IMG/VR virus record: IMGVR_UViG_2684622542_000005
From: a virus
Lineage: Duplodnaviria > Heunggongvirae > Uroviricota > Caudoviricetes
Length of the DNA stretch: 44,309 nucleotides
Direction: 5' to 3' (one strand)
Part shown: positions 2 through 27,061 of the stretch, piece by piece
How the letters are laid out: each line of letters starts with the position of its first letter
How positions within the stretch are numbered: position 1 is the first letter of the stretch
Position numbers and translations under genes: made by a program
The notes under the pieces: model-generated
Database searches by the model: none
Seen by the model: only the letters and a program-made list of their open reading frames with translations
What the model was told of the DNA's origin: nothing

Positions 2-199
2 CTATTACCTTCTTCAGAGAGCCCCCAGCTACTTCCTGTGACTCTCGATGCAGCTGCCGAACAGCCAGAATCGCTCGCAGAGGACCCGAAAACCCTCAGT
101 ATCAGCTGTGAGGTAACGTTCCGGCACGGGACGCTCCGCTTCAATGGCAATGTCAGCGAAAAGCTCCTGACTCTGCTGATACAGGAACTGAAGCGATGA
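2..199 (+). CDS. IS66-family accessory protein (orf1/TnpA), 5' end outside window
   Basis: Open frame from the window edge ending ...LLTLLIQELKR*; its stop overlaps the ATG of the following tnpB (ATGA), the usual IS66 orf1-orf2 coupling. Confidence 0.5.
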   Translation, partial: LLPSSESPQLLPVTLDAAAEQPESLAEDPKTLSISCEVTFRHGTLRFNGNVSEKLLTLLIQELKR

Positions 200-7904: not shown

Positions 7905-8456
7905 ATGATGAAATTACAACCCATGGGACTAAAAGGTCGCGCCCCCGCTCATGTCCGTCCGTGGACACCTGAAGAAGATGCGCTGCTGATTGCGCTTTAT
8001 TCATCCACCCCGGTTAAGGATATTGCTGCCAGAATAAAAAGAACTGTCTGGGCTGTATATAACCGGACTGGTGTATTGCGCAGTTCATACCCGGAGTTAC
8101 TGAAATATAAACACCCAAGATTTACACCTGATGAAGATAAGTTTATTCGAAAAAATGCCAGAACAATGACCTGCCAGCAAATGGGAGAATATCTCGGACG
8201 TAATAAAGATTCTGTCAGATGTCGGGCAGGAATGATTGGTGCTGGATTAACAAAGTGCGGAGAGTTACGCCCCGGCACGCGCATATCTGATGATGATGTA
8301 CGTCTTATACGTGAGCTGCGTGATTCCGATTACCCACGCCGTCTGTCATTCCGGGAAATTGGCGAAAAGTTTGGAATATCTGAACATTCTGCTCACGCAG
8401 TTTATTACCGTCGCCGGACTGCCGAGGACGCTGTATTACGGGAGTTAACGCCATGA
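7905..8456 (+). CDS. Hypothetical DNA-binding protein with tandem Myb/SANT-like repeats
   Basis: Repeated W/FTP(E/D)ED motifs (RPWTPEEDALL, RFTPDEDKFI) plus a C-terminal HTH-like segment. Confidence 0.55.
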   Translation: MMKLQPMGLKGRAPAHVRPWTPEEDALLIALYSSTPVKDIAARIKRTVWAVYNRTGVLRSSYPELLKYKHPRFTPDEDKFIRKNARTMTCQQMGEYLGRNKDSVRCRAGMIGAGLTKCGELRPGTRISDDDVRLIRELRDSDYPRRLSFREIGEKFGISEHSAHAVYYRRRTAEDAVLRELTP

Positions 8457-9500: not shown

Positions 9501-10013
9501 ATGAATCGCGCTTCCCTGATTACCTTAATACATGTCGCAAAACGCGATCTACAGCTTGACCATGATACCTATACATCCGCGCTGCTGGCAGCCACCGGCA
9601 AATCCAGTTGCCGTGATATGTCACCCGGTGAGTTATCCCGCGTGCTGGATGTTTTCAAAAAACGCGGTTTTAAAGTGCGTCAGAAGCCGGTTAACCGGGC
9701 CTTAAAACCGGGTACGGTGACCGCCAAAATTCGCGCCATCTGGAAAGTGATGCACCGGCAGGGATTTATCTCTGATGGCGGGGAAACGGCCCTTAACCGC
9801 TGGGTGAAATCGCAGACGGCCGCGCAGAACGACGGCGAAGGTGTGGCTAACTGGCAGTGGCTGGAGCAACAACCCGCGCTGGCCTCTGATGTGCTGGAGC
9901 GTCTCAAACGCTGGCACCGCCGCAAAATGCTGGCAGCCCTGGATATGTCGGAACGTGCAGTGATGAGTTATGAGCGTGTTTGCAGGCTGTATGAAAAATC
10001 ATTCCCCCGTTAA
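9501..10013 (+). CDS. gemA: GemA-like protein (Mu gp16 family)
   Basis: N-terminus MNRASLITLIHVAKRDLQLDHDTYTSALLAATGKSS..MSPGELSRVLDVFKKRGF follows the gp16/GemA pattern; sits just before the Mor/C activator. Confidence 0.7.
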   Translation: MNRASLITLIHVAKRDLQLDHDTYTSALLAATGKSSCRDMSPGELSRVLDVFKKRGFKVRQKPVNRALKPGTVTAKIRAIWKVMHRQGFISDGGETALNRWVKSQTAAQNDGEGVANWQWLEQQPALASDVLERLKRWHRRKMLAALDMSERAVMSYERVCRLYEKSFPR

Positions 10014-10017
10014 CCCC

Positions 10018-10048
10018 AAATCCCGCCACAGCGCGGGATTTTTATTTT
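10018..10048 (+). terminator. Putative intrinsic terminator after gemA
   Basis: Stem AAATCCCGC / GCGGGATTT with 5-nt loop followed by TTTATTTTAA. Confidence 0.5.
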
Positions 10049-10083
10049 AAACTTGCCCTGTGTAATGATGACCGGAGGCGGGT

Positions 10084-10506
10084 ATGGCTGAAACACAGAT
10101 GAGCATGTTTGGTGACAGCGAACAGCTGCACGCGCTGATTGACCGTCTGGATGATATTCCTGATGATGAGCTGAAAAAGAACTGGCCCGGCACGCTGCGG
10201 GACCTGGTTGATGTGATCAGTGCTGAACTGCACCGTCAGGGGATTGAACCTGCTCAGGCGGGAATGCTTGCCCGTAAGGTTGCAGCCGCACAGGCCGGGT
10301 ACATGGGCGGGCGTGGTTATTATCTCCCGGTCGGTGAATCCCTTTTCACCGAACTGCGCAATAATGAAATTTTTTCCCGCTGGAGCCAGGGCGAAAAAAT
10401 TGAAACCCTGCGCCGCCACTACCAGATGTCAGAGACGCAGATTTACTCCGTTATCCGCAACCAGCGTCGCCTGCATCAGGAACGCACGCAGCCACGGCTT
10501 TTCTGA
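10084..10506 (+). CDS. Mor/C-family transcriptional activator
   Basis: 140 aa, between gemA and the lysis gene; glycine-rich segment followed by a C-terminal HTH-like region, as in Mor/C. Confidence 0.7.
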   Translation: MAETQMSMFGDSEQLHALIDRLDDIPDDELKKNWPGTLRDLVDVISAELHRQGIEPAQAGMLARKVAAAQAGYMGGRGYYLPVGESLFTELRNNEIFSRWSQGEKIETLRRHYQMSETQIYSVIRNQRRLHQERTQPRLF

Positions 10507-10510
10507 TATT

Positions 10511-10527
10511 CCGCAAATCCTGCCCCC
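10511..10527 (+). promoter_or_regulatory. Candidate late-promoter activator site upstream of endolysin
   Basis: CCGCAAATCCTGCCCCC about 50 bp before the lys ATG; near-identical to a motif before the head protease gene. Confidence 0.35.
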
Positions 10528-10577
10528 TTTTCCTCACGGTTACGCTGACTCAGAGAACACCATGAGACAGCGTAACA

Positions 10578-11078
10578 ATGCCAAAACTCCCCGCACCCCT
10601 GCGTAAAAAGCTGATTGCCCTTGTTCTGGCCGGAGCCGGGACGTTCACCATTGCCACGCACTACACCGGCTACTGGGAAGGGAAAGAAAACACCACGTAC
10701 ATTGATCCCACCGGCACCCCCACCATCTGTTACGGCCATACCGGCCCGGATGTGAAACCGGGGATGACAAAAACTGATGAAGAGTGTCTGGAGCTGCTGG
10801 AAAAGGACATGAAATGGGCCTTTGCGGCTATCGATCGTCATGTTCAGGTGCCGCTTACCCGTGGTCAGACGGTGGCGCTGGCCTCCTGGATTTTCTGGGC
10901 CGGTGAAACGAACTTTCGCAACTCCACGCTCCTGCGCCTTATCAATGCCGGGCAGATGCCCGCGTCCTGTAAGCAGTATATCCGCTGGATTTATTCAAAG
11001 GGGGTAAAACTCCCCGGTCTTGAGGCCCGCCGTTCGGCGGATGAATGGTTATGTCGTTACGATTTGCCGAAAGTCTGA
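10578..11078 (+). CDS. lys: SAR endolysin (phage lysozyme, T4/lambda-R type)
   Basis: N-terminal hydrophobic signal-anchor (LIALVLAGAGTFTIATHYTGY) followed by the lysozyme catalytic segment YWEGKENTTYIDPTGTPTICYGHTG. Confidence 0.8.
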   Translation: MPKLPAPLRKKLIALVLAGAGTFTIATHYTGYWEGKENTTYIDPTGTPTICYGHTGPDVKPGMTKTDEECLELLEKDMKWAFAAIDRHVQVPLTRGQTVALASWIFWAGETNFRNSTLLRLINAGQMPASCKQYIRWIYSKGVKLPGLEARRSADEWLCRYDLPKV

Positions 11079-11151
11079 ACCGCTTCTGGCGACCGCTCAT
11101 GATTGCGCTGCTGTGTGCCGTTGTGCTGCTGCGGGGTGTGCTGTGTCTGCG

Positions 11152-11394
11152 GTGAACAATCCCTTACCGGCCCTGATTGCCGGAGGCTGTATGGCGGCGC
11201 TGGGGGTGATGAGCGTGCTGGCTGCCGTGGTATGGGGAATGCACCAGAAGACGCAGCGCCTTGAGGACAATAATCATGTGCTTGTGCGTGAACGGGACGA
11301 AGCCCGTCTGGTGCTGGCAAACCAGCAACGCACCCTGCAACTCATTTCACAAATCAGCAAGGCGGCCACGAATGAAAAACAGCAGAACATGCAG
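11152..11394 (+). CDS. Putative i-spanin (Rz-like), runs into N-run
   Basis: Directly after lys; predicted TM helix (PLPALIAGGCMAALGVMSVLAAVVWGM) then coiled-coil; start ambiguous (GTG 11152 or ATG 11191). Confidence 0.45.
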
Positions 11395-11654
11395 NNNNNN
11401 NNNNNNNNNNNNNNNNNNNNNNNNNNNNNNNNNNNNNNNNNNNNNNNNNNNNNNNNNNNNNNNNNNNNNNNNNNNNNNNNNNNNNNNNNNNNNNNNNNNN
11501 NNNNNNNNNNNNNNNNNNNNNNNNNNNNNNNNNNNNNNNNNNNNNNNNNNNNNNNNNNNNNNNNNNNNNNNNNNNNNNNNNNNNNNNNNNNNNNNNNNNN
11601 NNNNNNNNNNNNNNNNNNNNNNNNNNNNNNNNNNNNNNNNNNNNNNNNNNNNNN

Positions 11655-11745
11655 GGCCAGCATCCGCCGTCTGGAGACACAGCGACAGCATGAATTTACT
11701 GATATGGCCGGAACGACTGCTGTTCCGGCAGGAAAGACGAAGTAA
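11655..11745 (+). CDS. C-terminal fragment of a lysis-region gene emerging from the N-run
   Basis: Open frame ...ASIRRLETQRQHEFTDMAGTTAVPAGKTK*; may be the end of the i-spanin or an o-spanin. Confidence 0.3.
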
Positions 11746-11755
11746 GGAAAAAGGT

Positions 11756-11983
11756 ATGGATGATTCAGATTGTGCTCAGGCAGTCATGGAGCGTGCAACA
11801 GAACGCGCCCTTTGTGACCGGCTGACACGTAAGCGCCGGGTGGCGGAGACACCGGGCAGGCGTGTATGCGCGGACTGCGGGGGTGACATTCCGGCTGCCC
11901 GTCTGGTTGCCGTGCCGGATGCCATCCGTTGTGTGAACTGCCAGAACATCATGGAGGCCGGTCATGTGGGTCAGCATCGTTAA
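11756..11983 (+). CDS. TraR/DksA-family C4 zinc-finger protein
   Basis: 75 aa with CADCGG...CVNCQ four-cysteine zinc finger. Confidence 0.7.
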   Translation: MDDSDCAQAVMERATERALCDRLTRKRRVAETPGRRVCADCGGDIPAARLVAVPDAIRCVNCQNIMEAGHVGQHR

Positions 11984-12275
11984 AGATTATGTCGTGCCGA
12001 TCCTGTCGGCAACGGCCACAGCCGGGGGGATCTTCATGGCGCTGATGCGCAAAACCTTTGTCCCCCGCGAGGCCTTTGAAAAACTCTCCGACCGGGTTGA
12101 GCGGGTGGAGAGCCGGATTTCCGGCCTGCCCACGCAGCAGGAGGTGAACAGACTCAATATCGAAATCACCACCCTGCGCGGTGAGCTTAAGGCCACCAAT
12201 GCCACCCTGAAATCCGTCTCCCATCAGAACGAACTGCTGCTGGAGCAGGCTGTAAGGAAAAAACACAATGAGTGA
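11964..12275 (+). CDS. Hypothetical membrane/coiled-coil protein
   Basis: 103 aa, N-terminal hydrophobic helix then coiled-coil. Confidence 0.55.
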   Translation: MWVSIVKDYVVPILSATATAGGIFMALMRKTFVPREAFEKLSDRVERVESRISGLPTQQEVNRLNIEITTLRGELKATNATLKSVSHQNELLLEQAVRKKHNE

Positions 12276-12558
12276 TTTCATTACTGAAGATCAGCGTCTT
12301 GTCATTCTGCGGTCGCTGGCGGATTACAACGGCGAACTGGGCGAATCCGTGCTTCAGGACTGCCTGGATGATTACGGTCACCGCGTGTCCCGCGACACCG
12401 TTCATACCCACATTGCCTGGCTTGCCGAGCAGGGACTGGTGCGTAAGCGCACGCTTGTTAACGGTTATTTCATCGCTGAACTGACCGGCCGGGGTCAGGA
12501 TGTGGCGGAAGGCCGCGCCACCGTTCCGGGTGTGAAGAAACCACGCGCAAGGGGGTAA
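12268..12558 (+). CDS. Hypothetical protein
   Basis: 96-aa ORF in the position of the Mu gene preceding the small terminase. Confidence 0.55.
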   Translation: MSDFITEDQRLVILRSLADYNGELGESVLQDCLDDYGHRVSRDTVHTHIAWLAEQGLVRKRTLVNGYFIAELTGRGQDVAEGRATVPGVKKPRARG

Positions 12559-12560
12559 CG

Positions 12561-13142
12561 ATGGATAAGCCAGCGCGTGGCCGTGTACGCAAGGTGGATT
12601 TGCTCCCCGACAGCATCCGTAAGCCGCTGCTGGAAATGCTGCGTGAAAAACGTCTGACGCAGGTCCAGATCCGCGAGGAAATCAACCGTCTGATCCGTGA
12701 AGCAGGTCTGCCGGAAGAGCAGCAGCTCTCACCGGCGGCCATCAGCCGGGAAGCCTCCCGTAATGAGCTGATTGCCCGTAATCTGCGTGATTTACGCGAG
12801 CAGACAAAAGCCATGATGGCCGAACTGGGGGATAAGCCGACCGGTGAAACCACGGCACTGATTCTGGAGATGTCCCGTGCCCTGATGTACCGCCGTCTGC
12901 GTGCCGCCACCGAATCCCTGAACAGCGACAGCGATGTGGATATGCGCCTTATTAAGGACATCCTCCTGTCGGCACAGCGTGCAGAAAGTGCCGCCGAGCG
13001 CAGCATTAAGCGTGAAAAAGAAATCCGGGCCGCATTTGCTGAAGAGATGGCGAATGCGGTCACCGATGAGTTGCGCGGCGTGGATGGCATGAGCGAGCAG
13101 ATCGAATTCCGTATCAGGCAGATGCTGCTGGGTAAGGCGTAG
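12561..13142 (+). CDS. Putative terminase small subunit / DNA-binding protein (Mu gp27-like)
   Basis: 193 aa immediately upstream of the large terminase region. Confidence 0.65.
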   Translation: MDKPARGRVRKVDLLPDSIRKPLLEMLREKRLTQVQIREEINRLIREAGLPEEQQLSPAAISREASRNELIARNLRDLREQTKAMMAELGDKPTGETTALILEMSRALMYRRLRAATESLNSDSDVDMRLIKDILLSAQRAESAAERSIKREKEIRAAFAEEMANAVTDELRGVDGMSEQIEFRIRQMLLGKA

Positions 13143-13152
13143 GAGGTGAATC

Positions 13153-13401
13153 ATGGCAACAGATAACCGCTCACTGATGAGCAGTGCCCATCAGAAAGCA
13201 TTCAGTCTTGCAACACAGTTACCTCCTGAAACCATAAAGGTATGTCGTGAGTTGACTGAACTCAGCATTGCCGGGGAAATATCCCTGGAACAACTGCATT
13301 CGCTGCTGGCAGAGGCTGCCACTGATGAGTTGAGCGGCGTGGACGTGATGACTGAAGAGCTTGAGTCCCGAATCAAAAGCATTCTGACAGGTAAAGCATG
13401 A
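13153..13401 (+). CDS. Hypothetical small protein sharing a C-terminal motif with the preceding gene
   Basis: C-terminus TDELSGVDVMTEELESRIKSILTGKA parallels TDELRGVDGMSEQIEFRIRQMLLGKA of the upstream protein. Confidence 0.5.
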   Translation: MATDNRSLMSSAHQKAFSLATQLPPETIKVCRELTELSIAGEISLEQLHSLLAEAATDELSGVDVMTEELESRIKSILTGKA

Positions 13402-15065
13402 TGAACAAAGCCAGAGAAACGTCGCCTTCACTGATGCAAATGACGCCTCCCCGCAAAATTGATCTGTCAGGTGAAAAAGCCCTGCTGGGCGTGGATGTGC
13501 CGGACAGCCTTGATTTGCCCGGTGATATGCCGGTGTTTCTGGATTATCAGGCCCGCTGGTTTGCAGATGAAAGTCAGGTCTGCATCGCGGAGAAATCCCG
13601 CCGCACCGGTCTTACCTGGGCGGAAGCCGGGCGTAACGTCATTACTGCTGCAAAACCGAAGCGTCGTGGTGGCCGCAATGTGTTTTATGTGGGATCAAAG
13701 CAGGAGATGGCGCTGGAATATATTTCTGCCTGCGCGCTGTTCTCCCGTGCCTTTAACCAGCTGGCAGATGCTGATGTGTATGAGCAGACATTCTGGGATC
13801 GGGATAAAAAAGAAGAAATTTTGACCTACATGATCCGCTTTCCGAACAGTGGATTCAAAATTCAGGCATTGTCTTCCCGTCCGTCAAACCTGCGCGGCCT
13901 TCAGGGGGATGTGGTGATTGATGAAGCCGCGTTCCACGAGTCACTGGATGAGCTTCTCAAGGCGGCAATGGCGCTCACTATGTGGGGCGCGCGCGTGCGT
14001 ATTATCTCCACGCATAACGGCGTCGATAATCTGTTTAATCAGTACATTCAGGAAGCCCGCGAGGGGCGCAAGGATTACAGCGTCCACCGCATAACCCTGG
14101 ATGATGCCATTGCGGACGGGCTGTACCGTCGTATCTGTTACGTCACCGATCAGGAATGGTCACCGGAAAGCGAGCAGAAATGGCGTGATGATCTCTACAA
14201 AAACGCCCCGACCCGTGAGGATGCCGACGAGGAATACGGCTGTATCCCGAAAAAATCCGGCGGTGCCTATATCCCCCACGCGCTTATTGAAATGGCGATG
14301 ATCCGCGACATCCCGATTCTGACGTTTGAAGCCCCGGACAACTTCATCAGCCGTGCCGCATGGCTGCGTGAATCGGAAGTTTTAACCTGGTGTGAAGAAC
14401 ATTTAAAACCGCTTTTAGAGAAATTAAATCCCCGTTCCCGCTTCAGCTTCGGGGAAGACTTTGCCCGCACCGGTGACCTGTCCTGCTTTGTGCTGCTGGA
14501 AATCACCGAATCCCTGGCAAAGCGCGAGGTGTTTCGCGTGGAGCTGCGCAACCTGCCGTATGCCCAGCAGGAACAGGTGATGATGTACATCCTGACCCGC
14601 GTTCCGGCGCTGGTCGGTGCGGCGTTCGACGCCACCGGTAACGGCGGCTATCTGGCAGAGGCCGCACTGCTGGCCTTTGGCCCGGACATCATCGACTGCG
14701 TGATGTTGTCGCCGAAGTGGTACGGCGAGTGGATGCCAAAACTGAAAGCCGAGTTTGAAGATCAGAATATCCTCGTCGCCCGCCATCAGACCACGCTTGA
14801 TGATTTGCGCCATGTGAAGGTAGTGAATGGTATCCCGCAAATCGACAAGGGGCGCACGAAGGACCAGAACGCAACGGCTGCGAACGCCCGCCGCCATGGT
14901 GATTTTGCCGTGGCGCTCTGTATGGCAAACCGGGCGTCATACATGGAGGGCTTCATCCTGGATGAATCAGCCTGTCAGGCGCTACAGGAGCGGTCGCGGG
15001 CAATGGAGGGCGGTTATCGTGATGACGATGAGGCATATCATGAATTTGATCGGGGGGGCTGGTAG
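13398..15065 (+). CDS. Terminase large subunit (Mu gp28-like)
   Basis: 555 aa, precedes the portal gene. Confidence 0.85.
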   Translation: MMNKARETSPSLMQMTPPRKIDLSGEKALLGVDVPDSLDLPGDMPVFLDYQARWFADESQVCIAEKSRRTGLTWAEAGRNVITAAKPKRRGGRNVFYVGSKQEMALEYISACALFSRAFNQLADADVYEQTFWDRDKKEEILTYMIRFPNSGFKIQALSSRPSNLRGLQGDVVIDEAAFHESLDELLKAAMALTMWGARVRIISTHNGVDNLFNQYIQEAREGRKDYSVHRITLDDAIADGLYRRICYVTDQEWSPESEQKWRDDLYKNAPTREDADEEYGCIPKKSGGAYIPHALIEMAMIRDIPILTFEAPDNFISRAAWLRESEVLTWCEEHLKPLLEKLNPRSRFSFGEDFARTGDLSCFVLLEITESLAKREVFRVELRNLPYAQQEQVMMYILTRVPALVGAAFDATGNGGYLAEAALLAFGPDIIDCVMLSPKWYGEWMPKLKAEFEDQNILVARHQTTLDDLRHVKVVNGIPQIDKGRTKDQNATAANARRHGDFAVALCMANRASYMEGFILDESACQALQERSRAMEGGYRDDDEAYHEFDRGGW

Positions 15066-16654
15066 TGGGACGCATCATTGATACTGACGGAAAACCTTTC
15101 TCCTTTGACCCGGAGATGCAGAGTGCCGCGCTGGATATTCCGCAGATTGCCAGCCGTTATATTGAACATCCGGCTTCGGGTATCACCCCGAACCGGGCGG
15201 CGCAGTGCCTTCGCGGGGCTGAACGTGGCGATCTGATTGCCCAGTCCGATCTGGCCGCTGATATTGAAGAAAAGGACACCCACCTTTTTGCGGAGCTGGG
15301 CAAGCGACGTCTTGCCATTCAGGGGGTGCCATGGAGTATTGAGCCGCCACCGAACGCCAGCGCGAATGAGAAAAAGGACGCGGAAATGCTCGACGAATAT
15401 CTGCATTCCGCAGACTGGTTTGATGCCATGCTGTTTGACGCCACGGATGCCATCCTGAAGGGCTATTCCTGCATGGAAATTGAGCACGGGATGCTCGGTA
15501 AAATGCACATCATCCGCGCCATCCGCTGGCGTGACAGCGGGCATTTCTGCCTTAACCCGGATGATTTGAGCGAACTGCGGCTGCGTGACGGCAGCCATGC
15601 CGGGGTGGCGTTTCAGCCCTTTGGCTGGATAGTGCATCAGTCGCGTTCACGCACCGGCTACGGTGGTGCGACGGGGCTTGTCAGAACGCTTATCTGGCCG
15701 TTCATTTTCAAAAACTATTCCGTGCGCGATCTGGCGGAATTTCTGGAGGTGTACGGCCTGCCAATGAAGGTCGGGAAATACCCGTCCGGGGCAACACCGG
15801 AGCAGAAAAGTGCCCTGATGCGGGCGGTGATGGATATCGGGCGACGTACAGGCGGGATCATCCCGGCCGGGATGTCGCTGGAGTTTCAGGCGGCAGCGAA
15901 CGGTCAGGCCGATCCGTTTGAAACCATGATTTCGTGGGGTGAGCGTTCCATCTCCAAAGCAATACTCGGCGGCACGCTGACCACAGAAGCCGGAGACAAA
16001 GGCGCGCGCTCGCTGGGTGAGGTGCATAACGAGGTGCGCCGGGAAATCAGGGATTCTGATTTACGCCAGCTGGCTGCAACCCTGAACCGCGATCTGGTGT
16101 ATCCGCTGTATGCCCTGAACACCGCCCACGCCATTGATATCCGTCGCCTGCCGCGTATCTGTTTCCAGACCAAAGAACCGGGGGATATCACCAAAATAGC
16201 CAGTGCGGTGATGCAACTCAGTGCGGGGATGGATATTCCTGATCCCTGGGTACGGGATCAGACCGGTATTCCACAGCCCACGCCCGGTGAAGCCATATTC
16301 CGTGTCCGTCAGAGCAGTAATGAACCGGCCATGCCTGACAGGGAAACGCTACCGGAAAAACAGGAAAAGACAGAACAGACGGCGCTTTCAGCCCGACTGC
16401 CGGAAGCGAAAAACACGCCGCGTGATGAACTGGACGACATGGGGGACGCGGTGCCTGCCCGCCGCTTACAGGAGGCCATCGATCCGGTGCTGGAGCCGGT
16501 CATTGATGTCATCAGAACGCGGGGGCTGGCGGAGGCACTGGCAGACCTGCCTGCCCTTTACCGTGAAATGGATGATTCCCGCCTGATGACGCTGCTCAGT
16601 GATGCCATGTTTGCTGCGGAAATGAAGGGGATGCTGGATGGCTCAGGGGATTGA
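15065..16654 (+). CDS. Portal protein (Mu gp29-like)
   Basis: 529 aa between terminase and head morphogenesis genes; GTG start overlaps the terminase stop. Confidence 0.85.
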   Translation: MGRIIDTDGKPFSFDPEMQSAALDIPQIASRYIEHPASGITPNRAAQCLRGAERGDLIAQSDLAADIEEKDTHLFAELGKRRLAIQGVPWSIEPPPNASANEKKDAEMLDEYLHSADWFDAMLFDATDAILKGYSCMEIEHGMLGKMHIIRAIRWRDSGHFCLNPDDLSELRLRDGSHAGVAFQPFGWIVHQSRSRTGYGGATGLVRTLIWPFIFKNYSVRDLAEFLEVYGLPMKVGKYPSGATPEQKSALMRAVMDIGRRTGGIIPAGMSLEFQAAANGQADPFETMISWGERSISKAILGGTLTTEAGDKGARSLGEVHNEVRREIRDSDLRQLAATLNRDLVYPLYALNTAHAIDIRRLPRICFQTKEPGDITKIASAVMQLSAGMDIPDPWVRDQTGIPQPTPGEAIFRVRQSSNEPAMPDRETLPEKQEKTEQTALSARLPEAKNTPRDELDDMGDAVPARRLQEAIDPVLEPVIDVIRTRGLAEALADLPALYREMDDSRLMTLLSDAMFAAEMKGMLDGSGD

Positions 16655-17969
16655 TTTAGGTTATGCCGCCACGCTTCCCTCAAAAGAGACGGTGGCATAC
16701 TTCCGCGCCAAAGGGGCGCATATCAGCTGGAACTGGTTCGAAACAGACGCGGATGTTCATGCCCGCTCATTCACGGCAGCAAAAACGGCACGGCTGGATG
16801 TGGTAACCACATTACAGGCCGAAGTGCAGCGGGCCATTGATGAGGGGATTTCACAGAAAGAATTTATCCGCACACTGACGCCACGCCTGCAAAAGCTGGG
16901 ATGGTGGGGAAAGCAGATTGTGGTGGACAGCGACGGTAACGCGGAAGAAGTGCAGCAGGGCAGTCCCCGTCGTCTGGCGCTGATTTACAACGTGAACACC
17001 CGTGTGGCTTACAATGCCGGGCGTTACACGCAGATGATGAACAACACGGACACGCATCCGTTCTGGCAGTATGTGGCGGTCATGGACAGCCGTACCCGCC
17101 CGTCGCATTCCGCCCTTAACGGTCTGGTATTCCGCTATGACGATCCGTTCTGGAAAACACACTACCCGCCCAATGGCTGGAACTGCCGCTGCCGTGTGCG
17201 GCCATTGTCTCAGGCCCGTCTGGATGCAATGGGGTTATCCGTTTCATCCGGTGAGGATCATCTCTCCACCCGCAATGTTGAGGCTGGCGTGGATAAACAG
17301 ACCGGAGAAGTCAGAGAAATGCCGGTGACCACATATTCAGATGGCGCCAGAACCATGACACCGGATGTGGGCTGGTCATATAACCCCGGCTCGGCAGCGT
17401 TCGGCACAGACCAGGCGCTGATCCGCAAACTGATCGAGGTGAAAAGCCCGGCGTTACGGGAAATGGTGGTTCAGGAGATGAACAACAGCCCGGAGCGGCA
17501 GCTGGCGTTCCGCATCTGGGCAAAAAACATCATGCAGACCCGGCGAGGTGGTAACGATATCCGCACGCTGGGCTTTATGACTGAAAGCATTGCGCAGGCA
17601 GTGGAAAGCCGGACGGGAACGCCACCGGCCCGCCTGCTGGCGATGAGCGGTAAAAATGTGCTCCATGCGGACAGTGTGAAACATCAGAATGACGGCATCG
17701 CTCTGACGCCGGAGGACTTCGGGCGCTTACCGGCAATGCTGGCAAGGCCAAAAGCGGTACTGTGGGACAAACGGCACAACAATCTGATGTATATCGTGGA
17801 AAATCAGGATGGCAGTGTGCAGATTGCCGTTAATGCACCGTACAGTCTGAAACGTCAGCCCGACAAACTGGATGTGATTGTGAATGCTTACCGGGTTATC
17901 AATATGGATAAGCTGAAATCGGATATCCGGGGCGGAATGCTTGAGGTGCTGGAAGGACAAATTGATTAA
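16638..17969 (+). CDS. Head morphogenesis protein (Mu F-like)
   Basis: 443 aa with HPFWQYVAVMDSRTRPSHSALNGLVF...NGWNCRCRV core. Confidence 0.85.
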   Translation: MAQGIDLGYAATLPSKETVAYFRAKGAHISWNWFETDADVHARSFTAAKTARLDVVTTLQAEVQRAIDEGISQKEFIRTLTPRLQKLGWWGKQIVVDSDGNAEEVQQGSPRRLALIYNVNTRVAYNAGRYTQMMNNTDTHPFWQYVAVMDSRTRPSHSALNGLVFRYDDPFWKTHYPPNGWNCRCRVRPLSQARLDAMGLSVSSGEDHLSTRNVEAGVDKQTGEVREMPVTTYSDGARTMTPDVGWSYNPGSAAFGTDQALIRKLIEVKSPALREMVVQEMNNSPERQLAFRIWAKNIMQTRRGGNDIRTLGFMTESIAQAVESRTGTPPARLLAMSGKNVLHADSVKHQNDGIALTPEDFGRLPAMLARPKAVLWDKRHNNLMYIVENQDGSVQIAVNAPYSLKRQPDKLDVIVNAYRVINMDKLKSDIRGGMLEVLEGQID

Positions 17970-17971
17970 CG

Positions 17972-18056
17972 GTCAGTGGCGGGGGTCGAACCCGCATACA
18001 TGATCCACCCGGAGGCAGGCACCGACTTTACCAGTTAAGCGTACACTGACCGCCTG
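17972..18056 (-). other. tRNA-like structured element (acceptor stem plus T-arm, no canonical anticodon arm)
   Basis: Minus strand reads GTCAGTG-TA-...-GCGGG-TTCGACC-CCCGC-CACTGAC-C: a 7-bp acceptor-like stem and a T-arm with TTCGA loop; anticodon stem could not be folded by eye. Confidence 0.3.
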
Positions 18057-18090
18057 TTTATTTTATATTCATCCTTTATGCGGAGGCAAT

Positions 18091-18564
18091 ATGTCATCCA
18101 TTGATGCAGCTGTCGTTGTTGACGTTACGCGTCTCCAGCGAGTGTTTGCCCGGCTTCAGTTTGTGGGCGGCGGAAAAGACCTGGCCCGCAGTGTGGCGGC
18201 GAGTCTTCTGTCATCGTCAGAAATGGCGTTTGAGCAGGAAAAAGAGCCGGATGGTGAACGCTGGCATGACTGGTCAGATCCTTACCGTGAGTGGCGTACC
18301 CGTAAGGGATACACGCCCGGCAAAATCCTGACGCTGAACGGCGATCTGGCCCGCCGCCTGACCACGGATTATGGCGATACCTGGGCGCTGATTGGATCAA
18401 ATGAACCTTATGCAGCCATTCATCAGTGGGGTGGCCTGCCTGGTATGCCACCGGGACCGGCGGCCATTGGCGCACGTCCGTATATGGGCTTTGATCAGGT
18501 GGCAGAACAGGAGATCATGGACGAAATCAGAAAACGCTTTAAAAAGGCCACAGAAACGCCGTAA
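18091..18564 (+). CDS. Virion morphogenesis protein (Mu G-like)
   Basis: 157 aa, between F-like and protease genes as in Mu. Confidence 0.75.
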   Translation: MSSIDAAVVVDVTRLQRVFARLQFVGGGKDLARSVAASLLSSSEMAFEQEKEPDGERWHDWSDPYREWRTRKGYTPGKILTLNGDLARRLTTDYGDTWALIGSNEPYAAIHQWGGLPGMPPGPAAIGARPYMGFDQVAEQEIMDEIRKRFKKATETP

Positions 18565-18699
18565 TGGTTTAAGGTATGCAAACGTATTACCTTACCCCCT
18601 TCAGGCGCGTGTCGTGATTTTCTAACCTGTATTTAACGGGCTTTAAAATCTGCGTGAAGCGCCTTTCTCATTCCCCCCCTGTCAGCACTTTCTGAAGTC

Positions 18700-18715
18700 C
18701 CGCAAAACCAGCCCC
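18700..18715 (+). promoter_or_regulatory. Candidate late-promoter activator site upstream of head protease gene
   Basis: CCGCAAAACCAGCCCC about 25 bp before ATG 18742, in a 177-bp gap; matches the motif upstream of lys. Confidence 0.35.
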
Positions 18716-18741
18716 AAAAATACCCGGCTTATGCTGCCGGT

Positions 18742-19875
18742 ATGAAGACAGAAAATCACCCAAAAGACGCAAATCGCCCCTCCGGTTTAGCCGTGCTTTC
18801 AGCTTCGCTGACTGCATCCGGCGACGGATGGTGTCAGTTACTGCCAGCCGGTCGGGTAAAGGCCCGTGACGGTCGCCCGGAAAAACCGACTGAAGGCTGG
18901 CTGATTAACGAATCCGCCTGTAACCGGATGAAAGCCGGGCTTTCCGCCCTGCATCAGCCGTTACTGATTGATTATGACCATCACTCCGTGAATGCGCAGA
19001 AAAACGGATTCAAGGCTATTGCTGCAGGATGGGTTAAGCCGGAAAACATCGAATGGCGTGAGGGTCAGGGGATTTTCATTAAACCTGAATGGACACCACA
19101 GGCACAAAAACATATTGATGACCGTGAATATGCCTATCTGTCTGCATATATGCATTATTTCGCTGACACCGGGGAACCCTACCTGTTGCGCATGGCTTCC
19201 CTGACGAATGATCCGGGTATTACGGGTATGAACCCTGTCGCGGCACTCAGTGCTGATGATCTCTATGTCGTTTCCCCTTCTCAGGAGCAATCCCCCATGA
19301 ATGAGCAATTACGCCAGTTGCTGACGGCGCTCGGTCTGACCGTGGCTGACGGTGACGAATTTACACCGGAACTGGGCACGGCGGCGCTGTCTGCCCTTAC
19401 CGGGATCAAAACCCGTGCGGATGCGCACGACACCCTGAAAACGCAGGTTGCCAGCCTGTCGGCAGAACTGGAAACCGCAAAAGGCACACCAACTGGCGGC
19501 ACTATTGATCTGACGAAATATGTGCCCGTTGAGACGTATAACGCCCTGCGTACCGAATATGCCGCGCTGTCGGCACAACACGGCAGCACCACGCTGGAGC
19601 AGTTGCTGGATAAGGCCGAGTCCGAAGGACGCATTTTCAAAAGCGAACGCGGATACATGGAAGGACTCGGACAACAGATTGGCGTCGCGGCACTTTCTGC
19701 ACAGCTTGACGCCCGCCAGCCGGTTGCGGCTCTGACCACTCTTCAGACCGACACCGTAACCGTGCCGGATAAAAAGACCGCCACCGCTGTGCTGTCGGCT
19801 GAAGATATCGCCGCCGCACGTCTGTTGGGTAAAACCGAAGCCGAGTTCCTGAAAATGAAAGAGGAAATGCAATAA
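18742..19875 (+). CDS. Head maturation protease / scaffold (Mu I-like)
   Basis: 377 aa upstream of and overlapping the major head gene start; Ala/Thr-rich C-terminal scaffold-like half. Confidence 0.75.
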   Translation: MKTENHPKDANRPSGLAVLSASLTASGDGWCQLLPAGRVKARDGRPEKPTEGWLINESACNRMKAGLSALHQPLLIDYDHHSVNAQKNGFKAIAAGWVKPENIEWREGQGIFIKPEWTPQAQKHIDDREYAYLSAYMHYFADTGEPYLLRMASLTNDPGITGMNPVAALSADDLYVVSPSQEQSPMNEQLRQLLTALGLTVADGDEFTPELGTAALSALTGIKTRADAHDTLKTQVASLSAELETAKGTPTGGTIDLTKYVPVETYNALRTEYAALSAQHGSTTLEQLLDKAESEGRIFKSERGYMEGLGQQIGVAALSAQLDARQPVAALTTLQTDTVTVPDKKTATAVLSAEDIAAARLLGKTEAEFLKMKEEMQ

Positions 19876-23993: not shown

Positions 23994-24326
23994 ATGAGCG
24001 GAAAACAGTATCAGGGCACGGCCACCATCCGTGTGAACGGGCAGGAGTACGACACCCTTGAGGGGGCCACGTTCTCCCCGTCCGGCTTTGAGCGTGAAGT
24101 GGTGAAAGGCGCGAAAGTTTACGGCTATCGCGAGAAACCCCGTGAGGCGACGCTGGACTGTAAATTCCCGGCGGGCGGAGAAGGTTCACCGGCTGCCGAT
24201 GAAATCAACACCTGGACTGCGGTCACGATTGAGTTCGTGGCCGATACCGGTGAAGTCCACATGATGACGAAGGCCTGGAGCAGTGAACCGGCCTCGCTTG
24301 ACGGTGGTGGTGATATCTCCGCGAAG
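23994..24326 (+). CDS. Tail tube protein (Mu M-like), 3' end lost in N-run
   Basis: 111 aa visible before the N-run; size and position fit a tube protein. Confidence 0.75.
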
Positions 24327-24598
24327 NNNNNNNNNNNNNNNNNNNNNNNNNNNNNNNNNNNNNNNNNNNNNNNNNNNNNNNNNNNNNNNNNNNNNNNNNN
24401 NNNNNNNNNNNNNNNNNNNNNNNNNNNNNNNNNNNNNNNNNNNNNNNNNNNNNNNNNNNNNNNNNNNNNNNNNNNNNNNNNNNNNNNNNNNNNNNNNNNN
24501 NNNNNNNNNNNNNNNNNNNNNNNNNNNNNNNNNNNNNNNNNNNNNNNNNNNNNNNNNNNNNNNNNNNNNNNNNNNNNNNNNNNNNNNNNNNNNNNNNN

Positions 24599-24876
24599 AC
24601 AGCATTGATGCGGAGAGCGAGGCCGAGCGTCTTATGGAAACCCGAAACGGTCCGGTTCTTGTGGCCTCACCGGCACTGCGCGGCATTGCGCTGCTGCGCC
24701 GTCAGATTGCCGCTGTCGGCCAGATTGAGGGGCCATTGTCTCCGCGTCAGATAGGACAGCTCAGCGAGCGCGATCTCTCCCGACTGATGGCGGCAGTAAG
24801 CCTGCTTGATTCCGCGATGGCCGGAAAGCTGGTCGCTGAACGGGGGCGACCAGATGCAGTGCCGGGATCAGATTGA
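24599..24876 (+). CDS. Tail assembly chaperone-like protein, 5' end in N-run
   Basis: Open frame emerging from the N-run, directly upstream of the tape-measure gene. Confidence 0.5.
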
Positions 24877-25000
24877 AGAAGCCGCAATTGTGCTGGGGAT
24901 GGTGACAAAAAGCGGCCCGGAGTGGGCGCTTAACCTCCCCTTATCGCAGCTTTACCGGCACTGCCGACAGACCGAAAAAATTCTCAGAACGAAGCAGTAA
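24854..25000 (+). CDS. Small overlapping ORF upstream of tape measure (possible second chaperone or frameshift product)
   Basis: ATG 24854 (MQCRDQIEE...) overlaps the end of the previous gene in another frame. Confidence 0.35.
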   Translation: MQCRDQIEEAAIVLGMVTKSGPEWALNLPLSQLYRHCRQTEKILRTKQ

Positions 25001-25003
25001 CCC

Positions 25004-27061
25004 ATGGCAAAAAACCTGAAAGCCTCCCTGATTGTCGATTTACTCGGCAATATTTCTGCCAAATCCCGCCAGTGGTCACAGGAGCTGGGGGCATTCTCCC
25101 GTTCCGGCAGGACGGGGCTGGGTGGTCTTGGAAATGCAGCACGTCGTGCCGGTCAGGAGACAGAACTTGTCGGCTCCCGTATGCAGCGAACGCTTGCCGG
25201 TGTTCGTGGCAGTATCCGCACGGTGACGTCAGATTTTGACCGCCTTCAGGGCAGCATTACCGGCACCATCGGGCGGATAAGCAACCTTTACGGGATGCTG
25301 GCGGGAGGGGCTGCGGTCTACGGGTTTAATAAAGCCTTTATCCGCCCGGCCGCAGAGATGGAGAACTATATTCTGCGTCTCAACGCCATTAATCATGGCG
25401 ATACGGCAAAAACGGAAGCAGTGAAAGCCTGGGCGGTACAGAACGCCAAAGACACCACCTGGGGGCTGGCGGGGGTTATGCAGGAATACGCCTCCAGTCG
25501 CGGGTTCGGTATGAGTGACAGGGAAGCCCGTCGCTTTATTACCATGCTTCAGGATCAGGGCGGCTATCACGGCTGGTCACTGTCAGATGCACAGGGTGCG
25601 TCCCTGCAACTCAAACAGATGTTTGCCCGCCAGAGTATCCAGGCAGCGGACGCCAATATTCTGACCGGATACGGGATTAACGTTTACCAGTTGCTGGCCG
25701 ATAAGCTGGGTGTAAACCAGAAGATCATCCGTGAGAAAGGCGAGAAAGGAAAACTGGGACCGGACAGCATTCGCCTGTTATTTCAGGTGATGGCCGAACA
25801 GGCAAAAGGTGCCCAGAAAAACGCCATGAATTCCTGGACGGGAATGACGTCCATGATGGGCGATGTCTGGGACGGATTTGCCCGCGAGGTGATGGCAAAG
25901 GGACCGTTTGACAGCCTGAAAAAGAGCCTGAAAGGCTTTCTGGATTATGCTGATGCGGCACAGAAAAGCGGCTTACAGGATAAGCTGGCCACACAGACGG
26001 CCTCAGCCCTGAATCAGGGATTTGAGTATGCCAGAGACGCTGCGACCGGCTTTTACCGGGTCATTCAGAAAGTCAGGGAAACGCTTCAGGCACTGCGCGA
26101 CGCCGGTTATGGCGATGCGCTGGATCGCATTGGTCAGGGTGCGCAGACCGCCGCAAAGTACCTGATGTATATGTATCTCGCCTCCCGTGCGCTGAAGGTG
26201 CTCAGGTTTGCGGGGACGGGGGCATTACGTCTCGGCGCAACCCCCTTACGCTATGGCATGGCGATGACCTCCGTGCTGACGTCGCCCTTCCGCAAACCGC
26301 AGACCACTGTACCGGGAACGCAGCCCGGACGCGCTGGCCGGTTCCTGAATTTCCTTACCGGGGTAAATCCGGCTGCCGTTCAGCCCGTGCTGGTCACCAA
26401 TTGGCCTGCGGGTGGCCTGGCCTCAGGTGGCGGGGATGTGGTGGTCAGCGGTGACGGCAAAACCGTGCGCGGCCGTAAAAAACGCGGCCCCGGACGTGGA
26501 CGGGGTGTCACGACCGTCGTGACTGCCGGTGAGCAACTGGCGGAGAGTGCCGGTAAACAGGGCTTCTTCGGTCGTATGATGAGCCGTGCCGGTGGTCTGC
26601 TAACGGCGGCCGGAAACCGCATGGGGCTGGGGCGTTTTGCCGGGCTGTTCCGTGGTGCCGGTCGGCTGGGTGGTGGTGCCCTGTGGGCCGGTGCCATGGC
26701 GGCTCCTGTACTGCTGGACAGCAGCGCCAGTGCAGCCGATAAAGCCGGTGCCGTGGGTTCCCTTGCCGGAAGTATCGCCGGTGGCGCGCTGGGGGCGGCT
26801 GCCGGTCCGGTCGGGGTTGCCATTGGTTCCACGGTGGGCAGCTATCTCGGTGATTATCTGGGGGGCTGGCTGACGCAGGCCTGGCAGAAACTGCGTGGCG
26901 GCAGTGACGAAAACGGCGGACAGGCCACCGCGAAAACCGCCGCACGGGTGGAGCTTGTTGCCCCTGAAGGCTGGCGGGCGCGCAGTATTGATGTGGATGA
27001 TACCGCACAGCATGGCCTGGATGTGAACGTCTGGAACGGAGGGAACTATGGCCTCTACTGA
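25004..27061 (+). CDS. Tail tape measure protein
   Basis: 685 aa with a Gly/Ala-rich C-terminal third. Confidence 0.85.
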   Translation: MAKNLKASLIVDLLGNISAKSRQWSQELGAFSRSGRTGLGGLGNAARRAGQETELVGSRMQRTLAGVRGSIRTVTSDFDRLQGSITGTIGRISNLYGMLAGGAAVYGFNKAFIRPAAEMENYILRLNAINHGDTAKTEAVKAWAVQNAKDTTWGLAGVMQEYASSRGFGMSDREARRFITMLQDQGGYHGWSLSDAQGASLQLKQMFARQSIQAADANILTGYGINVYQLLADKLGVNQKIIREKGEKGKLGPDSIRLLFQVMAEQAKGAQKNAMNSWTGMTSMMGDVWDGFAREVMAKGPFDSLKKSLKGFLDYADAAQKSGLQDKLATQTASALNQGFEYARDAATGFYRVIQKVRETLQALRDAGYGDALDRIGQGAQTAAKYLMYMYLASRALKVLRFAGTGALRLGATPLRYGMAMTSVLTSPFRKPQTTVPGTQPGRAGRFLNFLTGVNPAAVQPVLVTNWPAGGLASGGGDVVVSGDGKTVRGRKKRGPGRGRGVTTVVTAGEQLAESAGKQGFFGRMMSRAGGLLTAAGNRMGLGRFAGLFRGAGRLGGGALWAGAMAAPVLLDSSASAADKAGAVGSLAGSIAGGALGAAAGPVGVAIGSTVGSYLGDYLGGWLTQAWQKLRGGSDENGGQATAKTAARVELVAPEGWRARSIDVDDTAQHGLDVNVWNGGNYGLY

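What the first reader, a model, noticed from the sequence alone, without database searches (positions are those of the whole stretch)
10511..18715. Shared 16-17-bp motif upstream of the lysis and head-protease operons
CCGCAAATCCTGCCCCC (10511-10527, before lys) and CCGCAAAACCAGCCCC (18700-18715, before the I-like gene) are near-identical and sit where Mu has activator-dependent late promoters. A weaker copy, TTCCGCAAAACAC, lies at 34688-34700 just after gin, upstream of the cargo esterase. This is a candidate binding site for the Mor/C-family activator (10084-10506).
Basis: partly seen in the sequence, partly recalled or inferred. Interest (0 to 1): 0.5.

Follow-up and report, generated by a model that had tools for sequence, protein, structure and literature searches.

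The report
Late promoters of a Mu-like prophage
The repeated motif is real and most likely marks three late-gene promoters of a Mu-like E. coli prophage that are switched on by the phage's own C-like activator, which is an expected feature of this phage family but with a different recognition sequence from phage Mu.

Summary
The third copy is real but lies at 34692-34704, 4 nt right of the stated coordinates.

The shared element is longer than reported: TTYTGA-N4-CCGCAAAW. It occurs exactly three times in the window, always on the + strand and always intergenic (before lys, before I, after gin). A TAnnnT -10 hexamer follows 29-30 nt after CCGC, and there is no usable -35.

This is the geometry of the phage Mu C-dependent late promoters: an imperfect dyad centred near -43.5, at Mu's Plys, PI and Pmom positions. 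The prophage encodes a single Mor/C-family protein, 140 aa and 40% identical to Mu C.

Across 33 related loci (518 kb) the element is found only at these positions. The dyad and -10 are conserved while the spacer varies. More distant Mu-like phages keep the geometry but use other half-sites.

I found no equivalent of Mu's PP promoter.

Verdict: a new member of a known kind, predicted by computation only. Side observations are RNA hairpins that may block translation of read-through transcripts, and a probably leaderless I mRNA.

The parts
10084..10506 (+). The only Mor/C-family transcription activator gene of the prophage (140 aa), the presumed regulator of the three sites
   Evidence: Pfam Mor E=6.7e-31. 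PHROG 'late transcriptional activator' E=1.4e-44. 40% identity to Mu C over 136 aa and 28% to Mu Mor. It is the only Mor-family CDS in the PGAP annotation of the 99.6%-identical prophage L002 and of the Sp18-type prophage L003.
10501..10518 (+). Lys-promoter operator, an imperfect dyad TTCTG-N8-CAAAT.
   Evidence: The centre at 10509.5 lies 43.5 nt upstream of the predicted +1 (10553). The sequence is invariant in 30 related loci, whereas 10 of 23 spacer positions vary.
10541..10546 (+). Predicted -10 hexamer TACGCT of the lys promoter. Predicted start is about 10552-10553
   Evidence: It lies 30 nt after CCGC, the same distance as CCATAA to the -10 in Mu Plys, PI and PP. It is invariant in relatives. 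The position where a -35 would sit reads TCCTGC (1 of 6), and the generic sigma-70 scan finds nothing here.
10539..10576 (+). Inverted repeat GTTACGCTG-A-CTCA...TGAG-A-CAGCGTAAC. The 5' arm contains the -10 hexamer and the 3' arm ends 1 nt before the lys ATG (10578)
   Evidence: RNA fold -20 kcal/mol, z = -3.9, 0 of 200 shuffles as stable. The lys translation start region is among the most occluded in the related prophages when read-through RNA is modelled: rank 2 of 54 genes in L003 and third-lowest value of 42 in L002. It also shows one of the largest gains on 5' truncation. The few variable positions fall in unpaired bases.
18690..18707 (+). I-promoter operator TTCTG-N8-CAAAA.
   Evidence: The centre at 18698.5 is 43.5 nt upstream of 18742. 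In 10 sequence variants from 16 loci, 2 of 17 positions vary, against 8 of 23 in the spacer.
18730..18735 (+). Predicted -10 hexamer TATGCT of the I promoter. It sits in the loop of the hairpin CCGGC-TTATGCT-GCCGG (18725-18741) and ends 6 nt before the I start codon (18742)
   Evidence: The predicted +1 falls on the A of the ATG. The same '-10, 6 nt, ATG' layout, with a hairpin of different sequence, is found in lineages L042 and L054.
34684..34701 (+). Post-gin promoter operator, TTTTG-N8-CAAAA with perfect 5-bp arms.
   Evidence: 26.1 bits. The site is kept in strain M3, where gin is deleted (L041). It is also kept as TACTGAATTAACGCAAAA in the Sp18-type prophage, where blastn aligns only part of the gin gene and not this intergenic region.
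34723..34728 (+). Predicted -10 hexamer TATTCT of the post-gin promoter, 29 nt after CCGC. The -35 position holds a partial match, AACACA (3 of 6)
   Evidence: The Sp18-type site also has 29-nt spacing (TATGAT). A hairpin at 34719-34763 places the -10 in its 5' arm and the region before the ATG at 34764 in its 3' arm (z = -2.1, -3.4).
34764..36829 (+). Cargo gene driven by the post-gin promoter. In the window it is split into two overlapping ORFs (34764-35732 and 35681-36829)
   Evidence: The intact 689-aa ortholog in strain M3 has a SASA carbohydrate-esterase domain (E=1.2e-12) plus DUF6645 (E=3.8e-67). The window's second ORF carries DUF6645.
10578..11078 (+). Endolysin gene (lys), first gene downstream of the first promoter
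   Evidence: Pfam Phage_lysozyme E=1e-36.
18742..19875 (+). Mu I-type head protease/scaffold gene, first gene downstream of the second promoter
   Evidence: Pfam Mu-like_Pro E=8.3e-89.

Best explanation
The three sites are the late promoters of a Mu-like prophage of E. coli.

Each promoter consists of:
- a 16-18-bp imperfect dyad (TTYTG-N8-CAAAW) centred about 43 bp upstream of the start;
- a variable spacer, C-rich at lys and I, in place of a -35 element;
- a TAnnnT -10 hexamer.

Inferred mechanism: the prophage's single Mor/C-family protein (10084-10506) binds the dyad as a multimer and recruits sigma-70 RNA polymerase, or helps it open the DNA. This turns on three units late in lytic growth: the lysis-packaging-head operon (from 10553), the head-and-tail operon (from 18742), and a cargo esterase gene at the position where Mu has Pmom (from about 34735).

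Shown here: the sequence architecture, its position, its conservation, its absence from coding DNA, and homology to the Mu promoters and to Mu C. Inferred, not shown: binding by this protein, the start sites, and dependence on the activator.
For: 1. The extended motif occurs only three times, all on the + strand, all intergenic, upstream of lys, upstream of I and after gin. It is far above chance.

2. The geometry matches Mu. It is 30 nt (29 at the post-gin site) from the half-site to TAnnnT, exactly as from CCATAA to the -10 in Mu Plys, PI and PP. The dyad centre falls at -43.5, the published position of the C site, and Mu late promoters likewise lack -35 hexamers (PMC2582627).

3. The window's lys promoter aligns base for base with Mu Plys, including TCAGAGAA downstream of the -10.

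4. The activator is a C homolog: 140 aa, 40% identical to Mu C, Pfam Mor.

5. There is a conservation footprint. In 33 related loci (518 kb) hits of at least 16 bits occur only at the three positions. At lys, 0 of 17 dyad and 0 of 6 -10 positions vary, against 10 of 23 spacer and 24 of 85 upstream coding positions. The post-gin site survives deletion of gin. It also survives in the Sp18-type prophage, where blastn does not align this intergenic region.

6. Other lineages keep the 30-nt geometry but use their own half-site at both lys and I: CCATAA (Mu, L008, L053), CCGGAA (Kluyvera/Erwinia), GCGTAA (L042) and CCGCAAA (here). Residues of the recognition helix also differ between lineages, e.g. 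Mu C Q116 becomes S or T here (the contact residues come from the 2025 cryo-EM preprint).
Against: - There is no experimental evidence for this prophage family: no start-site mapping, footprint or reporter assay was found in the searchable literature.
- The half-site differs from the Mu C consensus, so binding by the homolog is extrapolated.
- The link between helix residues and half-site is not one-to-one. L054 has K and L079 has K at the Q116 position with ATAA-type sites. L052 has A where L004 has D, yet both use CCGGAA.
- No equivalent of Mu's fourth late promoter PP was found, and the com/mom genes have no such site. The parallel with Mu is therefore incomplete.
- The predicted I start on the A of the ATG is unusual. 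It could mean the -10 assignment at that site is wrong.
Confidence: 0.85

Rival explanations
1. The sites are real regulatory elements at late promoters but are bound by a different protein. Candidates are another phage DNA-binding protein (the SANT/Myb-like protein at 7905-8456, or the TraR/DksA-like protein in the lysis region) or a host factor. In that case the Mor/C homolog would act elsewhere or bind other bases.
For: No binding data exist. The half-site CCGCAAA is unlike the Mu C half-site CCATAA. Other putative DNA-binding proteins are encoded in the prophage.
Against: The dyad sits at exactly the position and spacing of the Mu C site. Each lineage with a diverged activator has its own half-site at the same position. 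That is what co-evolution with the Mor/C protein would produce.
Confidence: 0.07
2. The similarity is left over from common ancestry or duplication of intergenic DNA, or is chance, and has no present function.
For: Only three copies exist. The pattern was partly defined after seeing the data. One 4-mismatch match on the - strand (11079) shows that such matches can arise by chance.
Against: 0 of 300 shuffles reach the observed number of matches. All copies share strand, intergenic position and an exact distance to a -10 hexamer. The dyad and -10 are conserved while the spacer and the flanking coding DNA vary. The post-gin site is kept in the Sp18-type prophage, where blastn does not align this intergenic region.
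Confidence: 0.03
3. The motif acts at the RNA level, for example as a processing, stability or antitermination signal in read-through transcripts, rather than as a DNA operator.
For: All copies are on the transcribed strand. Read-through from upstream genes is likely, since there is no terminator between the activator gene and lys. Structured RNA is predicted just downstream of each site.
Against: The motif itself is predicted to be unpaired or only weakly paired, and no Rfam family matches. The conserved partners are a DNA dyad and a -10 hexamer at fixed distance, not an RNA helix.
Confidence: 0.03

Closest known systems
[quoted passage not shown]
   Same: - Same genome positions for three of the four promoters (after C and before lys; between G and I; after gin).
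- A -10 hexamer without a -35.
- An imperfect dyad centred near -43.5, with 30 nt from the half-site to the -10.
- A C-rich region downstream of the dyad at the lys and I promoters.
- A homologous 140-aa activator.
   Different: - The half-site is CCGCAAA and the dyad TTYTG-N8-CAAAW, instead of CCATAA and TTAT-N6-ATAA.
- Recognition-helix residues differ (Q116 to S or T, A119/R120 to R/N or R/E).
- No PP equivalent was found.
- The Pmom-position promoter drives an esterase cargo gene rather than com/mom, which lie 3.4 kb further on behind a GATC-rich palindrome and have no such site.
- There is one Mor/C gene instead of two.
- No terminator separates the activator gene from the lys promoter.
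Phage Mu middle promoter Pm, activated by Mor
   Same: The activator belongs to the same protein family, and the architecture is also a dyad at -43.5. The window has a terminator-like hairpin (10018-10041) followed by CCTGTG at nearly the same distance as in Mu Pm (27 against 28 nt).
   Different: The window's activator is closer to C (40%) than to Mor (28%), and no second family member is present to act on a Pm-like promoter. The three sites studied here are upstream of late genes, not upstream of the activator gene.
T4 gene e (lysozyme), soc, 49 and I-TevI: translation blocked in long early transcripts, permitted in late transcripts that start inside the hairpin
   Same: At lys and at the post-gin gene, the region just before the start codon is predicted to pair with a segment containing the -10 hexamer. 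Only transcripts from the late promoter would lack the inhibitory arm (T4 review PMC3014915).
   Different: This is a prediction only. The phage family, promoter type and activator are all different. In Mu itself the predicted effect is weak.

Membership tests
Mor/C-dependent late promoter of Mu-like phages | A recognisable -10 hexamer but no usable -35 hexamer | tested here: met
   The -10 hexamers are TACGCT, TATGCT and TATTCT. The -35 positions read TCCTGC (1 of 6), ACCAGC (1 of 6) and AACACA (3 of 6). The generic sigma-70 scan reports no promoter at any of the three sites. The Mu rule is taken from PMC2582627.
Mor/C-dependent late promoter of Mu-like phages | An imperfect dyad of about 16 bp centred at -43.5, overlapping the -35 region | tested here: met
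   The dyad centres are at 10509.5, 18698.5 and 34692.5. That places them 43.5, 43.5 and 42.5 nt from a +1 set 7 nt after the -10. The +1 is predicted, not mapped.
Mor/C-dependent late promoter of Mu-like phages | A Mor/C-family activator encoded by the same phage | tested here: met
   Pfam Mor E=6.7e-31, and 40% identity to Mu C.
Mor/C-dependent late promoter of Mu-like phages | Located upstream of lys, I, P and mom, as in Mu | tested here: inconclusive
   Sites are present before lys, before I and directly after gin. No site lies in or before the N/P genes (best other hit 15.5 bits, no -10), and none lies before com/mom.
Mor/C-dependent late promoter of Mu-like phages | Sequence match to the Mu C-site consensus (CCATAAcCCC, TTAT-N6-ATAA) | tested here: not met
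   The half-site here is CCGCAAAWCC. This defines Mu's own specificity rather than the family: other lineages use CCGGAA or GCGTAA with the same geometry.
Mor/C-dependent late promoter of Mu-like phages | Transcription depends on the activator, and the activator binds the site | not testable with these tools
   This needs EMSA or footprinting, and reporter or start-site assays with and without the activator.
T4 gene e-type translational gating by promoter choice | A hairpin occludes the ribosome-binding region in upstream-initiated transcripts | tested here: met
   This is a prediction only. The lys hairpin has z = -3.9 to -6.1. In read-through RNA the lys and post-gin start regions rank 2nd and 3rd most occluded of 54 genes in L003, and they rank 3rd and 1st for gain on 5' truncation. 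The effect is absent for I.
T4 gene e-type translational gating by promoter choice | The late transcript starts inside the hairpin and is translated, while the long transcript is not | not testable with these tools
   This needs start-site mapping and translational fusions with and without the 5' arm.
Leaderless mRNA (gene I) | Transcription starts at the A of the start codon, and there is no Shine-Dalgarno sequence | tested here: inconclusive
   The ATG begins 6 nt after the -10 in all 10 variants of this clade and in lineages L042 and L054. No Shine-Dalgarno sequence lies upstream. The start site is not mapped.

The most novel reading that the evidence does not exclude
In this prophage clade the late promoters may double as translational gates. 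At lys and at the esterase cargo gene, the -10 hexamer lies in the 5' arm of a hairpin that hides the ribosome-binding region. Read-through RNA from the adjacent activator gene or from gin would then be untranslatable, and only late-promoter RNA would be translated, as with T4 gene e. At I, the promoter would start exactly on the AUG and give a leaderless mRNA for the head protease/scaffold. That layout is conserved, with compensating hairpin changes, in at least three lineages whose activators are only about 52% identical. Together with a single Mor/C activator and three rather than four late promoters, this would be a simpler, differently wired version of the Mu cascade.
Probability: 0.4. 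Interest if true: 0.5.

Novelty: new member of a known kind. Interest (0 to 1): 0.3.

Why it matters
This gives a concrete, testable operator and promoter map for a Mu-like prophage family. That family is present in about 230 of 5426 complete E. coli genomes, including the O157:H7 Sp18-type prophages.

Comparison across lineages gives a natural series of activator and operator variants: CCATAA, CCGGAA, GCGTAA and CCGCAAA. These could be used to work out how Mor/C-family proteins read DNA, alongside the recent Mor and C cryo-EM structures.

It also predicts that a sialate-esterase-like cargo gene is expressed only on lytic induction. On its own, though, the finding extends a well-understood system rather than revealing a new one.

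Tried and rejected
1. A fourth, PP-like site. Weight-matrix and regex scans of both strands found nothing in the tape-measure, N or P region. The best other hit scores 15.5 bits and has no -10.

2. A site before com/mom. There is only a GATC-rich palindrome at 38096-38120 and no motif.

3. Autoregulation through the 3-mismatch hit at 10014. The motif-like bases CCCC before AAATCC are replaced in relatives (L021, L027) where a copy of the hairpin has a different left flank, so I rejected it as chance overlap with a terminator-like hairpin.

4. An RNA element or tRNA. Rfam and ARAGORN find nothing in the window.

5. MuA transposase-binding sites. By eye the motif does not fit the consensus TGNTTCAYTNNAARYRCGAAAR, which I recalled from memory, and the sites are internal rather than at the prophage ends. 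I did not pursue this.

6. A simple one-residue code linking recognition-helix position 116 to the half-site. It does not hold across all lineages.

7. Literature on late promoters of Sp18-type prophages. Nothing was found in the searchable library. Chiang & Howe 1993 (PMC1205707) is not held.

8. The genome-contig scan returned only 8 loci. The viral-contig scans were more useful.
Full report
**What the window is**

The window holds a Mu-like prophage of E. coli, from the repressor-like gene at 753-1298 to a Mom-family gene ending at 39055. IS66/Tn3 fragments and host genes flank it.

It is 99.6% identical over the test region to a prophage in strain JE86-ST05 (L002). It is about 83% identical to the Sp18-type Mu-like prophage of O157:H7 (L003). 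In total, 231 of 5426 complete E. coli genomes carry a relative.

The gene order follows Mu: ner-like, A, B, gam, gemA (9501-10013), a Mor/C-family gene (10084-10506), lys (10578-11078), packaging and head genes, G (18091-18564), I (18742-19875), the tail genes, and gin (34106-34678).

**Checking the observation**

The third string is present at 34692-34704, 4 nt to the right of the stated coordinates.

The similarity continues 10 nt further upstream. The pattern TT[CT]TGA-N4-CCGC occurs three times in the window and nowhere else on either strand, at 10501, 18690 and 34684.

Each copy is followed by a TAnnnT hexamer, 30, 30 and 29 nt after CCGC: TACGCT at 10541, TATGCT at 18730 and TATTCT at 34723.

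A weight matrix gives 26.9, 26.9 and 26.1 bits for the three sites. The next best hit scores 15.5 bits and has no -10.

With the 19-nt lys site as a query and up to 4 mismatches there are 3 non-self matches. Dinucleotide shuffles give 0.13 on average, and 0 of 300 reach 3. One of the matches (11079, - strand) lacks a -10 and is probably chance.

**What the sites are**

The Mu record annotates C-dependent late promoters at four places: between C and lys, between G and I, inside N (PP), and after gin (Pmom). The three window sites occupy the first, second and fourth of these positions.

In Mu Plys, PI and PP the conserved CCATAA begins 30 nt before the -10 hexamer, the same distance as here. The window's lys promoter aligns with Mu Plys as far as a shared TCAGAGAA after the -10.

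Published work places the C site as a 16-bp imperfect dyad centred at -43.5, with bases -52 to -34 required and no -35 hexamer (PMC2582627). A 2025 cryo-EM preprint shows C bound just upstream of the -35 position as a tetramer.

If +1 is set 7 nt after the -10, the window's dyads (TTCTG-N8-CAAAT, TTCTG-N8-CAAAA, TTTTG-N8-CAAAA) are centred at -43.5, -43.5 and -42.5. The -35 positions match TTGACA at 1, 1 and 3 of 6 bases. A generic sigma-70 scan finds no promoter at any of the three sites.

The protein encoded at 10084-10506 is 140 aa long, as is Mu C. It is 40% identical to C and 28% to Mor, and it matches Pfam Mor and the PHROG 'late transcriptional activator'.

**Conservation**

I collected 33 loci of this clade, 518 kb in total: the window, L002, L003, L012-L041.

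Hits of at least 16 bits occur only upstream of lys (30 loci), upstream of I (16 loci) and after gin (window, L003). The post-gin site is also present in strain M3. None lies in coding sequence.

Among 17 variants of the lys region:
- 0 of 17 dyad positions and 0 of 6 -10 positions vary;
- 10 of 23 spacer positions vary;
- 24 of 85 positions in the activator coding sequence just upstream vary.

All 30 hits in the weight-matrix scan, which tolerates mismatches, carry the identical dyad, so this result is not an artefact of how the sequences were anchored.

At I, 2 of 17 dyad, 8 of 23 spacer and 0 of 6 -10 positions vary.

Only CC-N-G-(C/T)-C is kept at lys and I, and it is absent at the post-gin site.

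The post-gin site survives in strain M3, where gin is deleted; there the changes fall only in the spacer. It also survives in the Sp18-type prophage as TACTGAATTAACGCAAAA, followed 29 nt after its ACGC by TATGAT. There blastn aligns only part of the gin gene and not this intergenic region.

**Comparison across the family**

More distant Mu-like prophages and phages keep the 30-nt geometry, but each has its own half-site, shared between its lys and I promoters:

| Lineage | Half-site |
|---|---|
| Mu, L008, L053, L057 | CCATAA |
| L079 | AATAAC |
| Kluyvera/Erwinia (L004, L005, L045, L051) and L052 | CCGGAA |
| L042, L044 | GCGTAA |
| This clade | CCGCAAA |

The recognition helix differs in step, though not one-to-one:
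- SQPQIYQII in Mu;
- SQTQIYDII in Kluyvera;
- GQQQIYHII in L042;
- SETQIYSVI and SETQIYTVI in this clade.

This is the pattern expected if the Mor/C protein is what reads the dyad.

**How it most likely works**

The single activator is made first. How its own gene is transcribed is unclear. A terminator-like hairpin at 10018-10041 separates it from gemA, and what follows resembles Mu Pm. No second Mor-family protein exists to activate such a promoter.

The activator then binds the three dyads and enables sigma-70 RNA polymerase to start at about 10553, 18742 and 34735. Binding, start sites and activator dependence are all inferred.

**Differences from Mu**

- No PP equivalent was found. The genes from I through the tail fibres would then form one transcription unit.
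- The Pmom-position promoter drives a cargo gene. Its intact ortholog has a SASA carbohydrate-esterase domain and DUF6645. In the window the gene is split into two ORFs.
- com/mom lie further right, behind a GATC-rich palindrome, and carry no motif.

**Side observations**

Each -10 hexamer is embedded in an inverted repeat that reaches the start codon.

*lys.* GTTACGCTG-A-CTCA...TGAG-A-CAGCGTAAC (10539-10576) folds at -20 kcal/mol with z = -3.9. There is no terminator between the activator gene and lys, so read-through RNA would contain this hairpin.

I modelled read-through RNA for every gene of the related prophages. The lys start region is among the most occluded: rank 2 of 54 genes in L003, and the third-lowest value of 42 in L002. 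The post-gin start region ranks 3rd of 54 in L003. For gain in accessibility on truncation at -24, the L003 ranks are 3rd (lys) and 1st (post-gin).

Other lineages have hairpins of unrelated sequence in the same place, for example L079 ACCCTCCTT/AAGGAGGGT and L054 TTCTGTC.GTTA/TTAACGGACAGAA. In Mu itself the effect is weak, and in L005 the hairpin is degraded.

This resembles T4 gene e, where late transcripts start inside an inhibitory hairpin (PMC3014915).

*I.* The ATG begins 6 nt after the -10 in every variant of this clade, and also in lineages L042 and L054. In each, the -10 sits in the loop of a short hairpin whose arms differ between lineages. Mu, L004, L008, L053, L057 and L079 instead have 28-32 nt between the -10 and the ATG.

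The predicted start therefore falls on the A of the AUG, which would give a leaderless mRNA.

Both ideas are predictions that need experiments.

**Novelty and verdict**

The finding extends the well-studied Mu late-promoter system to a common E. coli prophage family that uses a different operator sequence. I found no prior description in the searchable literature.

I rate it a new member of a known kind and of modest interest. The translational-gating and leaderless-I predictions are the parts most worth testing.

Noticed in passing
window 10539-10576 (lys) and 34719-34763 (post-gin gene): The -10 hexamer of each late promoter lies in the 5' arm of a strong hairpin whose 3' arm ends 1 nt before the start codon (lys fold z = -3.9). 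In read-through RNA these two start regions rank 2nd and 3rd most occluded of 54 genes in L003. They open up when the 5' arm is removed, as in T4 gene e. Hairpins of unrelated sequence sit at the same place in other Mu-like lineages (L079, L054, L042, L004).
   Followed up: partly
window 18725-18744; also L042 and L054 upstream of their I genes: The I start codon begins 6 nt after the predicted -10 (TATGCT-GCCGGT-ATG) and has no Shine-Dalgarno sequence. The predicted transcription start is therefore the A of the AUG, giving a leaderless mRNA. The -10 sits in the loop of the hairpin CCGGC...GCCGG. The same layout, with different hairpin arms, occurs in two other lineages, whereas Mu and several others have 28-32 nt between the -10 and the ATG.
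   Followed up: partly
window 9501-10506: The prophage has only one Mor/C-family gene, directly after gemA, where Mu has Mor, three small genes and then C. A terminator-like hairpin (10018-10041) lies between gemA and the activator gene. It is followed 27 nt from its centre by CCTGTG, compared with 28 nt in Mu Pm. How the activator gene itself is switched on is unclear. Sp18-type relatives differ downstream of AAACTT.
   Followed up: partly
L021 and L027 (relatives), region corresponding to window 10014-10045: In some relatives the hairpin AAATCCCGCCACAGCGCGGGATTT is present twice, flanking extra DNA inserted between gemA and the activator gene. This looks like a moron-type insertion bounded by terminator copies.
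   Followed up: no
window 24000-30000: No equivalent of Mu's PP promoter (inside gene N) was found by weight matrix or regex. The head and tail genes from I onward may form a single late transcription unit in this clade.
   Followed up: yes
window 34764-35732 and 35681-36829: The gene after gin is split into two overlapping ORFs. The ortholog in strain M3 is one 689-aa protein with a SASA sialate-acetylesterase-like domain and DUF6645. The window copy therefore carries a frameshift or a sequencing error near 35680-35730.
   Followed up: partly
window 38060-39055: A com-like ORF (starting at 38165) and a Mom-family ORF (ending at 39055) lie 3.4 kb right of gin. They are preceded by a GATC-rich palindrome, AATCGATCG-N7-CGATCGATT (38096-38120), and not by the late-promoter motif. 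This is reminiscent of the Dam/OxyR control of Mu mom, which I recall from general knowledge and did not test.
   Followed up: no
window 10562-10606: A 14-codon upstream ORF (ATGAGACAGCGTAAC...TAA) overlaps the lys start in another frame. It lies within the almost invariant lys leader.
   Followed up: no
window about 17971-18050 (- strand), corresponding to L002 27970-28049: PGAP annotates a 'tRNA-OTHER' between the F-like and G genes in the near-identical prophage. ARAGORN and Rfam find no tRNA or RNA family anywhere in the window.
   Followed up: yes
window 196-519 and 39274-40231: IS66-family and Tn3-family transposase fragments flank the prophage on both sides, so it seems to have inserted into or beside decayed mobile elements. 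The host genes to the right include a TonB-dependent receptor (42001-44262, - strand).
   Followed up: no
window 18742-18800 compared with relatives: Two very different N-terminal alleles of the I protein (MKTENHPKDANRPSG... and MKTKNTPKLAYAILN...) are shuffled among otherwise close relatives. The switch begins right after the conserved promoter and ATG, which marks a mosaic boundary at the promoter.
   Followed up: no
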